Assembly: GCA_027310735.1 (NCBI GenBank)
Contig: DAIDAH010000001.1
Location: 1-37,894, forward strand
Direction: 5' to 3'
Source of the DNA: Methylotenera sp.
GTDB taxonomy: Bacteria; Pseudomonadota; Gammaproteobacteria; Burkholderiales; Methylophilaceae
Length of the DNA: 37,894 nucleotides
Shown here: positions 26,008-33,688 of the stretch, in pieces
Layout of the letters: each line of letters opens with the position of its first letter
Numbering within the stretch: position 1 is the first letter of the stretch
Notes under the pieces: model-generated
Database searches by the model: none
What the model saw: only the letters and a program-made list of their open reading frames with translations
Told to the model about the DNA's origin: nothing
Program-made: the position numbers and the translations under genes

Positions 26008-26973
26008 TTAAGCCGCAAGCTGGTTTTTCAACTCTTCTTCCATCTCAAAAATATCAGCCACTATCCCGTACTTGGCGATGGTAAAGATTGAAGCACCTGG
26101 GTCAGTATTCACGGCGATAATAGTCGGCACATGCTTCATACCAGCCATATGCTGAATCGATCCCGAAATACCCAGCGCAACGTAAAGTTTGCATGAACCA
26201 ACCACTTTGCCAGATTGCCCGACTTGTCTTGATTTAGGCAGCCACCCAGCATCCGCAATAGGTCGTGAGCAACATAAGGTTGCACCTGCCGTTTCAGCAA
26301 GTTCACGGAACTGTTCAACATTGGTTTCTTCGCCAATGCCGCGACCGATAGACACAATAAAATCAACCGCGGTAATGTCTACATCATTAGCGCCACCGGG
26401 CTCGATAAACTCTTTATTCTGGCTACGAGACTGCACTACAGGTAAATCAAAACTACTTACAGATGGATTAGCCGCGCCTTCAAGGACTTTGAACACACTA
26501 GTACGTAGCGTCAACACAACGGTAGATTTACCTGGAAAATCCACTTCAACATTCACTTTTTGGTTATAACCGCCACGAGTCGCTACTAACTCATCACCTT
26601 GATATTCGGCAATAAATACATCCGTAGCATAGCCATAACCGGCTTTACTTGCCAAAGTCGCAGCATAACCTAGGGCATCAACAGAATGCGGTAGTAACAC
26701 TACGGCGGGGTTCTTTGCTGTAATTAATGCTGAAACGGCTGACTCAAAAATATCAGGATCAAAATCAGCAATTGGCGTTTGCACTACAATCACTTCATCT
26801 ACACCTGCAACTGACAATGCCGGCACAAAAGATTCAGCCTGACTGCCGATGACAGCTACCAGTACCTTATCATCTACTGATTTCTTTAATCCGTATGCCG
26901 CAGCAATAAGCTCTAAACTCACTGGACGCAACTCATTGCGACGATGCTCCGCAATTACTAAAATAGTGCTCAT
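26008..26973 (-). CDS. etfA: Electron transfer flavoprotein alpha subunit (TMADH-partner type)
   Basis: SIGRGI, CCSRPIAD, RQVGQSGK, GISGSIQHMAGM and AVNTD motifs; closely matches recalled M. methylotrophus ETF alpha. Confidence 0.96.
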   Translation of the reverse strand: MSTILVIAEHRRNELRPVSLELIAAAYGLKKSVDDKVLVAVIGSQAESFVPALSVAGVDEVIVVQTPIADFDPDIFESAVSALITAKNPAVVLLPHSVDALGYAATLASKAGYGYATDVFIAEYQGDELVATRGGYNQKVNVEVDFPGKSTVVLTLRTSVFKVLEGAANPSVSSFDLPVVQSRSQNKEFIEPGGANDVDITAVDFIVSIGRGIGEETNVEQFRELAETAGATLCCSRPIADAGWLPKSRQVGQSGKVVGSCKLYVALGISGSIQHMAGMKHVPTIIAVNTDPGASIFTIAKYGIVADIFEMEEELKNQLAA

Positions 26974-26975
26974 GC

Positions 26976-27770
26976 TTATGCTCCCTTAAATTCGTTAATA
27001 ATCTGGATGATTTTGGCTGCTTGCTCTGCCAGCGAACCTTCAATCATTTCTGCGCGACCTTTTTCTGGGATATACATGCGGCGTACACGTGACATTGAAT
27101 TTCCGGCGCCAACATCACCAGTTGACAGGCCAACATCTGCCAGTGAAAGCTCTTCAATAGGCTTGGCAGCGGCTTGCTTGATACCTCGTAGCGATGCATA
27201 CCGTGGCTTATTAATGCCAAGCTGTATGGTTAATACCGCAGGGCAATTAATTTCAACCTCTTGCAACATGCCGCCTTCAAGCTCACGACGAACCACAGCT
27301 TGACTAGCGCCGGGCTGATATTTAAAATCCGCGACGACTGCCGCATGTGGCCAGTTCAAATAAGCTGCGGTAGAGATACCTGTTGAGGCATAGGAGTGAT
27401 CAGATGACTGTACGCCGGCAAAAACAAGATCTGGCGCTTCTTTTTTGGCAACAGCGGCTAAAATTTTACCAATAGCTATTGCATCAGAACCCTCAATACT
27501 GTCATCCCAAACTCTAATTGCGCGGTCTGCGCCTTTAGCCAGACATTTACGCAAACTTTCATCCACGCGATCAGGTCCAATAGAAACTACAACGACTTCA
27601 ACCTCAGAGTCACTGGACTCTTTGATTTTCATTGCTTCTTCAAGTGAAAAATCATCCCACTCATTCAAGTCATACAGCAGGAAGTCTTCGTCTACATCTT
27701 TTTCATCAGCACGGATTTCAAAATCCTCATCTAATGCTGCGACTTGTTTTACTGCTATCAATATCTTCAT
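26976..27770 (-). CDS. etfB: Electron transfer flavoprotein beta subunit
   Basis: MKILIAVKQV, LNEWDDFSLEEA, GADRA, RRELEGG and INKPRYASLRGI; closely matches recalled M. methylotrophus ETF beta. Confidence 0.96.
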   Translation of the reverse strand: MKILIAVKQVAALDEDFEIRADEKDVDEDFLLYDLNEWDDFSLEEAMKIKESSDSEVEVVVVSIGPDRVDESLRKCLAKGADRAIRVWDDSIEGSDAIAIGKILAAVAKKEAPDLVFAGVQSSDHSYASTGISTAAYLNWPHAAVVADFKYQPGASQAVVRRELEGGMLQEVEINCPAVLTIQLGINKPRYASLRGIKQAAAKPIEELSLADVGLSTGDVGAGNSMSRVRRMYIPEKGRAEMIEGSLAEQAAKIIQIINEFKGA

Positions 27771-27814
27771 ATCTTCTATCTCCTAATAACTTCAATACTT
27801 ACCATCATTGTTAA

Positions 27815-31361: not shown

Positions 31362-31451
31362 TTAGCATCGCCTATTGAAAGGAGTTTATTAAGTTTTTAA
31401 TCGATAACCTTGTAAGGTCTGATTACGTAGAGATTCTTGACTAGCATTTAA

Positions 31452-31487
31452 AGCATGGCTACCGAATCATTATTCAGTAGCCATGCT
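31452..31487. terminator. Stem-loop directly after tmd (weak terminator or mRNA-stabilising hairpin)
   Basis: Perfect 11-bp arms AGCATGGCTAC / GTAGCCATGCT; only a short U-run follows on the minus strand. Confidence 0.65.
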
Positions 31488-31495
31488 GGCAACAT

Positions 31496-33688
31496 TTAAA
31501 CTTTGTACTCTATTTTGAATGTGCCACCCGGCATGTGCGGTGCACCCCAAACAGCGACCTCTCGTTTATATGGAAGAGCAATCTGTGGATTAGCCTCTTC
31601 GATCTCACGCGCCACACGATGGCCTGTGAAGGTTGCATCTGCAATCAATCTTGGAGCTTCGGCATCACCCACTAAATAAATACCTTTGATATCGTTTTCA
31701 GCCCATTCGGATTCGCGTGCTTTAAGTTCATTCCATAGTTTGTTTTCTGAATGACGACCAGTCACTAAAATCAATGAATCAAACTCAAGCCAGCGATGCG
31801 TTGTGTTTGCATCACGAGGAGAAACACCCGGTCCACGATAAGTACGTTTTGAACCATCACCCCAAATGTTATAAATTTCAAGACGACCGGCTTCAATTTT
31901 TGAGCAGAAATGATCTCCTAACTCTTCAACATGCAACTCATGCAACCTACGCATCATATTTGGATACTCAAGTGTAAAGTGCATATAGTTAGCCAGATGC
32001 ACGCCAGACACCACTGTTACTTCATGACCATCTGAAGCTAGTTTTTCAGCCAAGCTAGGCGCCATGAAATAGGTATCTGCATTTAAAATAACCACACGTT
32101 TGCCAATTTTCTTTTTACCTTCAAACACTTGTTCTGGTGTTAATTGATCAGGTAACGAGGCATCTGCACCAGGAATCGCTTCATGTGTTAAGCAGTTATT
32201 ACCATCCGTATTCCAAGAAGAACCAGTTGCGATAATCACTTTGTCAGCGCCGTATTGCAGCACTTCGTCAGCAGTCATGGCTTTTTGACCTAAAGCCACT
32301 TGGCTTTCCTTGTTTTTCTTCACTAATTTATTGATTTGCGTTTCACGATAATCACGGTGATAACTCCACTCGCCTAATCCAGGCAAGGTCGATACCGTAT
32401 TTAAGTGTCCGCCAATTTTTTCTGCTTTATCATACAAATGGACTGTGTAGCCACTTTCCATCAATACGCGTGCAGCTTCAGAACCTGACGGGCCTGCACC
32501 AACAACCAGCACGGAGTCTTTAGAGTTAGTTTTACGGAATTTTTCAGGATGCCAGCCACGGCGATATTCCTCACCTGCGGTAGCATTTTGCGTACAAATC
32601 ATCGGTGGGCCACCGATCTCCCAGCGTGAGATACATACGTTACAACCGATACAAACTCGAATGTCGTCAGAACGACCTTGTTCGATTTTTTGCGGTAAGA
32701 ATGGGTCCGCGATAGAAGGACGTGCGCAACCAATAATATCTGCGTAGCCTTTAGTGACAATTTCAACCATTTTTTCAGGGTCAGTATAACGACCAACACC
32801 TAATACTGGTTTCTTTGATACTTGTTTAACAAACTTAGTCCAAGGCACTTGGTGACCTTGTTGATAAAAACGTGAAGGGCCAGCATCTTCGCCCCATTCA
32901 GCAATATCACCAACATCCACATCCCACAAATCAACTAATGGATCAGCAAGCTCAATGAACTTCATCCCATCAACTTCAACCTCGATTTGTCCTGGACCAT
33001 ATACAGTATCCACAGCAAAACGCGTAGCAATTGCACACTCACTACCAACAGCATGTTTTACTTTTTCTAATGTTTCCAACCAAAAACGCGCACGATTCTC
33101 TAATGAACCACCATACTTATCAGTGCGTTTATTGTAGTAAGGATTTAAAAACTGCAATGGCAAGTATGAGTGAGCGCCATATACATAAACAATATCGAAA
33201 CCTGCATCACGTGAACGTTTGGCAGCATCGACATAATATTGTTGTACTTGCGCAATATCGCTAAGATCCATCTCCTTGCAATAGCTAAGCGTTTCAAATT
33301 CTGACGCATATTGACTTGGCCCACGTGGTGTTGCACGTGATTCCATGTTAGGTGCATGTGCACCACCGTACCAAAGCTCGACACCTGCAAGCGCACCATA
33401 TTTATGGACTTCATCAGTCATTGCACGCAAGTTGCGTACATCACCTTCATCCCAAATACGTGCAGACAATCGATGTGTATCATCAGATTCTGGGTGTATG
33501 GAACAGTACTCTGTATTCATTGCCGCCCAGCCACCTTCAGCCTTCATTGATCTATGTGCAGCTTGGAAGCCAGGTTTATCAGAACCAGCGCCAATACAGT
33601 GCGGCACTTGGTAAAAACGATTACGTAGTGTCTTAGGGCCAATTTGAATAGGTTCAAACAGAATGTCGTGTTTTGGATCGCGTGCCAT
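31496..33688 (-). CDS. tmd: Trimethylamine dehydrogenase (6-S-cysteinyl-FMN, [4Fe-4S])
   Basis: 730 aa, closely matching recalled M. methylotrophus TMADH ([19 protein letters not shown]...KIEYKV). QVPHCIG (Cys30), TEYCS (Tyr60, which is Gln in DMADH), [24 protein letters not shown]...C. Confidence 0.97.

What the first reader, a model, noticed from the sequence alone, without database searches (positions are those of the whole stretch)
26008..33688. Candidate electron exit for the classic TMADH-ETF pair: a co-encoded EMO/EtfD-like membrane oxidoreductase
Seen: the order is tmd, 708-aa membrane Fe-S protein, repeat protein, etfB, etfA on one strand, ending at a terminator; there is no canonical flavoprotein ETF-QO gene in the window. 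Known: the M. methylotrophus TMADH:ETF complex is a textbook system whose ETF has an unusually stabilised semiquinone linked to alpha-Arg237 (the CCSRP motif is retained here). Cytochrome b/Fe-S/CCG proteins such as Syntrophus EMO and mycobacterial EtfD couple ETF to quinones. Inference: this protein reoxidises the TMADH-specific ETF; to my knowledge that acceptor has not been clearly assigned.
Basis: partly seen in the sequence, partly recalled or inferred. Interest (0 to 1): 0.82.

Follow-up and report, generated by a model that had tools for sequence, protein, structure and literature searches.

The report
Membrane outlet for trimethylamine dehydrogenase electrons
The gene for the textbook trimethylamine-burning enzyme and the genes for its electron carrier (ETF) flank a gene for a membrane protein with haem- and iron-sulfur-binding motifs, which likely passes the electrons on to the respiratory chain; it belongs to a known family of such outlets but appears not to have been tested for this classic enzyme pair.

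Summary
Observation confirmed: tmd, a 708-aa membrane Fe-S gene, an LRV-repeat gene, etfB, etfA and a terminator lie in that order on the minus strand. The 708-aa protein folds like mycobacterial EtfD (TM-score 0.83). It keeps the haem histidines, both cubane motifs and the proximal non-cubane site (one Cys is Asp). It has lost all four cysteines of EtfD's linear [3Fe-4S] cluster, as reported for FadF and DgcB. It follows tmd in 74 of 74 informative loci, including M. methylotrophus, and occurs in the same 37 of 251 family genomes as TMADH. At two dehydrogenase loci it is fused to EtfB. Correction: this genome also has a canonical ETF-QO, as do 27 of the 37. In relatives that gene sits with a second ETF, and it was not found in ten. 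Best reading (0.85): this protein reoxidises the TMADH ETF and likely reduces ubiquinone; no activity was tested. The architecture is precedented (dgcAB-fixAB), so it is a new member of a known kind. Ten searches of an open-access library found no paper assigning this acceptor, but the older W3A1 literature was not readable. The scan found this operon before on other DNA.

The parts
31496..33688 (-). tmd, trimethylamine dehydrogenase (730 aa)
   Evidence: PDB 1DJN/2TMD E=0; 93% identical to the M. methylotrophus DSM 46235 gene product; C30, Y60, Y169, H172, W264, W355, V344, Y442 and four cluster Cys present (residue roles recalled)
31456..31487 (-). 16-pair hairpin just after the tmd stop; likely an mRNA-stabilising or partial-stop element
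   Evidence: z -3.8 against 200 dinucleotide shuffles; a hairpin with z<-3 within 70 nt of the tmd end in 54 of 74 loci, mononucleotide shuffles only
29235..31361 (-). 708-aa EtfD/EMO/FadF-type membrane oxidoreductase: five-helix b-haem domain (H85, H266; H248), two cubane motifs (C314/317/320/324, C379/382/385/389), proximal non-cubane site (H538, C588, C623, C624, C663, D666), distal site without Cys (D464, N499, D536, S539)
   Evidence: 9OJN E 7e-69 with alignment; ligand list from PMC13083937; AlphaFold2 pLDDT 95.5; Foldseek TM 0.83 to 9OJN; all named residues invariant in 71 of 71 tmd-linked orthologues
27815..29233 (-). LRV/HEAT-like helical repeat protein (about 472 aa), role unknown; likely a scaffold or assembly factor
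   Evidence: Pfam LRV E 9e-13; 1LRV E 3e-6; all-helical model pLDDT 94.3, closest folds PP2A A subunit and 1LRV; present in 61 of 65 loci that reach etfB
26976..27770 (-). etfB, ETF beta subunit of the TMADH-specific ETF
   Evidence: Pfam ETF; 84% to M. methylotrophus; PRYASLRGIK in 65 of 67
26008..26973 (-). etfA, ETF alpha subunit with Arg237 and Ser254
   Evidence: PDB 1O94/3CLU E 1e-173; R237 and S254 invariant in 23 of 23 aligned
25959..25992 (-). intrinsic-terminator-like hairpin with T-run after etfA
   Evidence: z -3.8
33905..35605 (-). methylamine/TMAO-type permease upstream of tmd, followed by its own strong hairpin with T-run
   Evidence: NCBIfam NF053774 852 bits, cut-off 690; hairpin z -8.5
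21996..25807 (-). downstream dimethylamine monooxygenase-like cluster (GcvT-like, DmmA-like, reductase, haem N-demethylase alpha): pathway context, not part of the electron exit
   Evidence: Pfam GCV_T, DmmA-like, HODM_asu-like

Best explanation
The 708-aa gene, which lies between tmd and etfBA and encodes an EtfD-fold membrane protein, is likely the dedicated oxidase of the TMADH ETF and would pass electrons from trimethylamine to ubiquinone. Proposed path: TMA -> FMN and [4Fe-4S] of TMADH -> one electron at a time to the ETF FAD (known for M. methylotrophus) -> ETF, anchored through EtfB, would swing its FAD domain onto the proximal non-cubane cluster (inferred from the Syntrophus EMO:ETF structure and from loss of the distal cluster) -> two cubane clusters -> proximal haem b (H85/H266) -> ubiquinone (inferred from gene content). 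The genome's canonical ETF-QO likely serves the second, housekeeping ETF. Shown: gene order, fold, motifs, co-occurrence, fusions. Inferred: cofactor content, ETF binding, direction, quinone identity, essentiality.
For: Fold and ligands match EtfD apart from the distal cluster and one Cys. EtfD links ETF to quinone in vesicle assays (PMC13083937), and the Syntrophus EMO binds ETF through EtfB with FAD 12-13 A from both non-cubane clusters (preprint 10.64898/2026.08.18.745454). The gene follows tmd in 74 of 74 loci with downstream DNA (best 80 of 366 hits; 6 end within 120 nt), across Methylophilaceae, Methylophaga, Hyphomicrobium, Paraburkholderia and Cupriavidus; no canonical ETF-QO was found in any of the 80. 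Paracoccus aminovorans and Azoarcus plasmids have the same five genes. In 251 family genomes the 37 with TMADH (>=86%) are the same 37 with the orthologue (>=76%). Canonical ETF-QO does not track TMADH: 27 of 37, and 62 of its 89 holders lack TMADH. In G242 (98% complete) and G131 (92%) the TMADH ETF is the only EtfA found and no ETF-QO or FixC was found. In 5 of 6 ETF-QO regions fetched the gene sits with its own lysR-etfB-etfA-fpr module, including M. methylotrophus. Two genomes carry TMADH-type gene (60-61%) > single 1061/1073-aa EMO-EtfB fusion > etfA; so does Shinella; three database proteins are such fusions (may overlap these loci). The TMADH ETF nests among ETFs that lie beside EMO genes and is 29-32% identical to ETF-QO-linked ETFs. 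Control: 11 of 11 distant TMADH-family genes (40-44%) have no EMO, ETF or ETF-QO nearby.
Against: No activity, deletion or expression data. A canonical ETF-QO is present in this genome and in 27 of 37 TMADH genomes, so cross-talk or redundancy is open. A 40% relative of TMADH (Agrobacterium Pno) uses EtfAB plus a canonical ETF-QO (PMC7688666). G238 (one contig, 100% complete) has a 65% TMADH paralogue with no EMO match and only the housekeeping ETF and ETF-QO; a 49% relative in Gemmobacter has no EMO or ETF beside it. Energetics are awkward: this ETF's ox/semiquinone couple is +153 mV, above ubiquinone (about +90 to +110 mV, recalled) and far above the Syntrophus EMO haems (-80 and -220 mV), so the cofactors must be retuned or the step pulled by quinol oxidation. 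UbiG was found in 4 of 5 genomes but not in G000 (383 contigs). Kin are not independent, the genomes lacking ETF-QO are drafts, and the ETF tree was sampled mostly from EMO neighbourhoods.
Confidence: 0.85

Rival explanations
1. The canonical ETF-QO reoxidises the TMADH ETF, alone or redundantly, and the 708-aa protein is a backup or works only under some conditions (for example low oxygen).
For: ETF-QO present in G000 and 27 of 37 TMADH genomes; Pno-EtfAB-Euo precedent; G238 has a TMADH paralogue with only ETF-QO.
Against: ETF-QO not found in 10 of 37, five of which (92-100% complete) were re-searched by protein: four blank, one FixC only. It sits with another ETF in 5 of 6 regions and never within the 80 tmd loci.
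Confidence: 0.08
2. The protein does take electrons from the ETF but hands them to a higher-potential carrier (a cytochrome or the bc1 complex) rather than to quinone, which would suit the +153 mV semiquinone.
For: ETF potential above ubiquinone (plus recalled quinone value); Asp in place of a Cys ligand and a conserved distal His (H248) leave cofactor potentials open.
Against: F92 and F255, equal to EtfD's quinone-site F85 and F230, are kept (F92 71 of 71, F255 68 of 71); no cytochrome c gene lies in the window operon; no second His for a distal bis-His haem.
Confidence: 0.04
3. The protein is a catalytic HdrD/GlpC-like enzyme (thiol or disulfide chemistry) or a direct membrane anchor of TMADH that bypasses ETF.
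For: Homology to HdrB/C; DgcB is described as the beta subunit of dimethylglycine dehydrogenase (PMC12093977); the gene lies next to tmd.
Against: H538 equals EtfD H583, which blocks the catalytic iron; the distal cluster is gone; natural fusions are to EtfB, not to the dehydrogenase; EMO distances track EtfA/EtfB (rho 0.91-0.92) more closely than TMADH (0.82) over 62 loci (non-independent pairs).
Confidence: 0.03

Closest known systems
TMADH:ETF of Methylophilus methylotrophus W3A1 (PDB 1DJN, 2TMD, 1O94-1O97)
   Same: tmd and etfA are close orthologues; the type strain DSM 46235 has the identical five-gene order (L045).
   Different: The papers I could read describe TMADH to ETF transfer only; none names the ETF's acceptor or the two genes between tmd and etfB.
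Mycobacterial EtfD (M. smegmatis, PDB 9OJN; PMC13083937)
   Same: Same fold (TM 0.83), haem His pair, eight cubane Cys, His-capped proximal non-cubane site, quinone-site Phe pair.
   Different: 26% structural identity; all four linear [3Fe-4S] Cys lost; C712 is Asp; no long disordered tail; client is an amine dehydrogenase, not acyl-CoA dehydrogenases; acceptor likely ubiquinone.
Syntrophus aciditrophicus EMO (preprint 10.64898/2026.08.18.745454)
   Same: Same three-domain build and three conserved His; ETF partner.
   Different: EMO has a [4Fe:5S] distal cluster and a low-potential twin haem for uphill methylmenaquinone reduction; neither is indicated here (twin haem not testable). Not compared by sequence directly.
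dgcAB-fixAB (dimethylglycine demethylation, Pseudomonas, Vibrio) and B. subtilis FadF
   Same: Flavin/Fe-S N-demethylating dehydrogenase + EtfD homologue + ETF in one operon (PMC12093977); FadF and DgcB lack the distal-cluster Cys and are proposed to take electrons at the proximal cluster. Such clusters occur in two family genomes inspected.
   Different: DgcB-like proteins are 31-32% identical, carry DUF3483, keep the fifth Cys, and have no LRV gene; DgcA-like proteins are 25% identical to TMADH.
Agrobacterium S33 Pno-EtfAB-Euo (PMC7688666)
   Same: TMADH-family dehydrogenase with a co-encoded ETF and ETF oxidase.
   Different: Its oxidase is the canonical flavoprotein ETF-QO, unrelated to this protein.

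Membership tests
EtfD/EMO/FadF/DgcB superfamily of haem b/Fe-S ETF:quinone oxidoreductases (broad) | Five-helix membrane domain with proximal bis-His haem b ligands | tested here: met
   H85/H266 align with EtfD H78/H241, 71 of 71; five long N-terminal helices in the model; hydropathy scan flagged four of them
EtfD/EMO/FadF/DgcB superfamily (broad) | Two cubane [4Fe-4S] motifs fused to a CCG/non-cubane domain in one chain | tested here: met
   Eight Cys in 71 of 71; Pfam Fer4 + CCG; TM 0.83 to 9OJN
EtfD/EMO/FadF/DgcB superfamily (broad) | Proximal non-cubane cluster capped by His (non-catalytic) | tested here: met
   H538, C588, C623, C624, C663 kept; the fifth Cys (EtfD C712) is D666, so occupancy and geometry need experiment
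EtfD/EMO/FadF/DgcB superfamily (broad) | Genetic or physical link to an ETF | tested here: met
   etfB follows in 65 of 65 loci long enough; EtfB fusions
EtfD/EMO/FadF/DgcB superfamily (broad) | Measured ETF:quinone oxidoreductase activity | not testable with these tools
   needs biochemistry
Mycobacterial EtfD (strict) | Linear [3Fe-4S] cluster on Cys503/538/581/584 | tested here: not met
   D464, N499, D536, S539 in 71 of 71
EMO (strict: ETF:(methyl)menaquinone oxidoreductase) | Host makes menaquinone | tested here: not met
   MenD over cut-off 0 of 5, futalosine-pathway family PF02621 0 of 5, UbiG 4 of 5; two markers only
EMO (strict) | Distal twin haem | tested here: inconclusive
   H248 equals the single distal ligand, but EtfD keeps the same His without a distal haem
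DgcB | DUF3483 membrane domain and position after dgcA | tested here: not met
   DUF3483 hits the DgcB-like protein at E 6e-95 and not the 708-aa protein; 31-32% identity
Canonical ETF-QO (flavoprotein) | FAD domain plus Fer4_ETF_QO | tested here: not met
   PF05187 hits C80 and C360 only, not the window
Trimethylamine dehydrogenase | Cys30 flavin link, Y60/W264/W355 cage, H172/Y169, four cluster Cys, Y442/V344 ETF contact | tested here: met
   all present (roles recalled); 93% to the M. methylotrophus protein
M. methylotrophus-type ETF | alpha-Arg237 and alpha-Ser254, close identity | tested here: met
   the +153 mV potential itself is not testable here

The most novel reading that the evidence does not exclude
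TMADH loci encode a distinct ubiquinone-reducing branch of the EMO family: three clusters instead of four, an Asp-ligated non-cubane [4Fe-4S] entry site with a possible oxygen-ligand metal site where the distal cluster was, potentials raised enough to drain a +153 mV flavin semiquinone, and an LRV-repeat protein that tethers ETF to the membrane enzyme in the way the covalent linker does in the EMO-EtfB fusions (LRV is absent from 3 of 3 fusion loci and present in 61 of 65 unfused loci).
Probability: 0.2. Interest if true: 0.7.

Novelty: new member of a known kind. Interest (0 to 1): 0.48.

Why it matters
TMADH:ETF is a classic model of protein-to-protein electron transfer that has been studied without its downstream partner. 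A specific, conserved candidate makes the last step testable in harmless, culturable methylotrophs. It could explain what the unusual +153 mV semiquinone is tuned to, and would extend the EtfD/EMO family to a likely ubiquinone-reducing member with an Asp-ligated non-cubane cluster. It also gives a marker gene for dehydrogenase-based trimethylamine use. A specialist would find it sensible rather than startling, because dgcAB-fixAB already shows this layout.

Tried and rejected
Complex prediction of EtfB + EtfA with the soluble part of the 708-aa protein: no verdict (0.43; one control 0.36); not used for or against. Public RNA runs: no RNA holder listed; not used. Idea that loss of the distal cluster is new: rejected, already noted for FadF and DgcB. 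Idea that the Cys-to-Asp change is a specific adaptation to the +153 mV ETF: weakened. CPxD occurs in 32 of 138 aligned sequences (query included), all without distal Cys, and in 0 of 92 with three or four of them. It is also found in loci with Hdr-like, lipoate and GMC-oxidoreductase neighbours, and three tmd loci keep Cys there (P. aminovorans, L142, L227). Idea that LRV is strictly required: four unfused GTDB loci and one metagenome locus lack it. Atlas, PDB and homologue searches gave LRV/HEAT repeats and no function. Promoter scan: 18 sites against 33 expected, uninformative. Literature: ten searches listed no paper assigning the TMADH ETF acceptor or describing this gene order. PMC4543880 had no hit for tmd/ETF terms; PMC8399692 names dmd-tmd only. 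Three relevant papers were not held.
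Full report
Observation. TMADH and EtfA match the M. methylotrophus structures, and the named catalytic and contact residues are present (their roles are recalled). A methylamine/TMAO-type permease lies upstream and a dimethylamine monooxygenase-like cluster downstream, so the pathway context is coherent. A 16-pair hairpin follows the tmd stop, and a strong hairpin lies there in 54 of 74 loci (mononucleotide shuffles). 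It may stabilise tmd mRNA or limit read-through; co-transcription is inferred.

What the 708-aa protein is. Its best solved relative is M. smegmatis EtfD (E 7e-69). An AlphaFold2 model from 126 sequences (pLDDT 95.5) matches 9OJN with TM-score 0.83; the next hits cover only the CCG domain. Against the EtfD ligand list (PMC13083937; I read parts 1-4 of 10: abstract, introduction, results, discussion), it keeps the haem His pair (H85, H266), the quinone-site Phe pair, eight cubane Cys and the His-capped proximal non-cubane site, with Asp666 in place of Cys712. All four Cys of the linear [3Fe-4S] cluster are replaced (D464, N499, D536, S539). These residues are invariant in 71 of 71 tmd-linked orthologues, except F255 (68 of 71). 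The same paper says FadF and DgcB also lack the distal Cys and proposes entry at the proximal cluster. In a preprint on Syntrophus EMO (abstract, passages and sections 6, 9, 10 read; supplement closed), ETF binds through EtfB with FAD 12-13 A from both non-cubane clusters. So the protein belongs to the broad family, in its branch without the distal cluster. It is not EtfD, EMO or DgcB in the strict sense (see membership tests).

Linkage to TMADH. Of the best 80 of 366 GTDB hits, 74 have downstream DNA, and in all 74 the gene follows tmd (gap 8-633 nt). All 65 loci long enough go on to etfB, and 61 of those have the LRV gene. None of the 80 has a canonical ETF-QO. The set includes M. methylotrophus DSM 46235, Hyphomicrobium zavarzinii, Methylophaga, Paraburkholderia and Cupriavidus; Paracoccus aminovorans and Azoarcus plasmids carry it too. 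In 251 genomes of the window's family, TMADH (>=86%) and the orthologue (>=76%) occur in the same 37. Eight further genomes have only 36-39% paralogues; the two such paralogue loci I inspected (G199, G205) are dgcA-dgcB-etf clusters beside glycine betaine genes. As a control, 11 of 11 distant TMADH-family genes (40-44%) had no EMO, ETF or ETF-QO in 14-18 kb, while 3 of 3 genes at 60-74% did. Kin are not independent, so these counts overstate.

Linkage to the ETF. Two genomes from the family of G252 have a TMADH-type gene followed by one ORF of 1061 or 1073 aa that joins the membrane protein to EtfB, then etfA. Shinella has the same, and three of 150 database representatives are such fusions. 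In a tree of 48 concatenated EtfB+EtfA sequences (L139, L118, L119 dropped for short matches), the TMADH ETFs nest among ETFs lying beside EMO genes. Their nearest sisters are the Shinella fusion locus, a metagenome TMADH-family locus and a haloarchaeal etf-emo locus. They are 29-32% identical to ETF-QO-linked ETFs (sampling favoured EMO neighbourhoods). In a 1/64 sample of metagenomes, 15 of 16 CPKD-type loci of 6 kb or more have etf genes beside them.

The rival acceptor. ETF-QO is in 89 of 251 genomes: 27 of the 37 TMADH genomes and 62 others. In 5 of 6 regions fetched it sits in its own etfQO-lysR / etfB-etfA-fpr module, including M. methylotrophus; in H. zavarzinii it stood without an ETF in 11 kb. 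C80 and C53 look like the two halves of that module (inference). Of the ten TMADH genomes without it, five (92-100% complete) were re-searched by protein: four were blank and one gave FixC only. G242 and G131 have one EtfA, the TMADH one. These are drafts, so absence is not proven. Against my reading: G238 has a 65% TMADH paralogue with no EMO and only the housekeeping ETF/ETF-QO, Gemmobacter has a lone 49% relative, and the 40% relative Pno uses a canonical ETF-QO (PMC7688666, passages).

Mechanism and its weak point. Known: TMADH passes single electrons to ETF, which cycles between oxidised and semiquinone states (PMC8097209 and PMC12630350, passages). Inferred: ETF docks via EtfB and reduces the proximal cluster, then the two cubanes, the haem and a quinone. 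No menaquinone marker passed its cut-off in five genomes and UbiG was found in four (not G000), so ubiquinone is likely. The ETF couple is +153 mV (PMC8958531, passages), somewhat above ubiquinone (about +90 to +110 mV, recalled), so the step is near level or slightly uphill and would need raised cofactor potentials or pull from quinol oxidation. The Asp ligand is a candidate for that, but it is neither unique to TMADH loci nor universal in them. Arg237 alone does not mark this behaviour, since the Arg is general to ETFs.

The LRV protein. It is an all-helical repeat, 35-51% identical across five genera compared, and conserved most strongly in its C-terminal repeats. It is absent from 3 of 3 fusion loci but also from five unfused loci. 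A tether or assembly role is my guess; nothing here tests it.

Novelty. The layout dehydrogenase + EtfD homologue + ETF is described for dimethylglycine (PMC12093977, passages). Ten searches found no paper that assigns the TMADH ETF acceptor, but the library lacks most subscription papers, including the older W3A1 work and three papers I asked for, so 'unassigned' is provisional. The scan's own notes show the same operon, and the fusion, on other genomes (consulted after my analysis; one search was empty); they are not independent support. Verdict: real, well supported by comparative evidence, a new member of a known kind; interest 0.48.

Noticed in passing
L228:6494-9679, L229:5972-9193, L136; P0122, P0126, P0213: Natural fusions of the membrane oxidoreductase to EtfB through a roughly 100-130-aa Ala/Pro-rich linker, directly after TMADH-family genes; no LRV gene in these loci.
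   Followed up: partly
window 31456-31487 (-): 16-pair hairpin right after the tmd stop; a strong hairpin is there in 54 of 74 loci. May set a TMADH excess over the downstream genes.
   Followed up: partly
G000:C360:1249-4923: fixABCX next to nifV/nifW-like genes (labels from my reading of the ORFs): a methylotroph of this family that may fix nitrogen. G030 has an 89-90% identical fixABC.
   Followed up: no
L116:9126-11336 (G238): Lone 65% TMADH paralogue in a complete genome, between NarXL/nitrate-transporter-like genes and U32-peptidase/SCP2 genes (UbiUVT-like, anaerobic ubiquinone synthesis); no EMO or TMADH-type ETF found in that genome.
   Followed up: partly
L217-L221; G000:C80 and C53: Conserved housekeeping module etfQO-lysR / etfB-etfA-fpr with no obvious client dehydrogenase, in 89 of 251 family genomes by the ETF-QO marker.
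   Followed up: partly
L147, L149, L151, L152, L157, L158, L166, L208: The CPKD, distal-cluster-less subfamily also sits with etfBA in loci with HdrA/B/C-like, lipoate-ligase, GcvH-like or hydrogenase genes.
   Followed up: partly
window 29235-31361, residues D464, N499, D536, S539: The lost cluster site is replaced by an invariant set of oxygen-donor residues, which could bind a single metal ion.
   Followed up: no
window 35970-37801 (+): A bacterial globin and an EamA/DMT transporter lie divergent from the permease and recur beside tmd in many Methylophilaceae and Methylophaga loci.
   Followed up: no
window 7865-12958 (-): Sucrose cluster: fructokinase-like, sucrose-phosphate synthase and amylosucrase-like genes.
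   Followed up: no
window 17042-21000: NarX/NarL-like two-component pair and a PAS-only protein next to the methylamine cluster; the PAS gene recurs near tmd in several genera.
   Followed up: no
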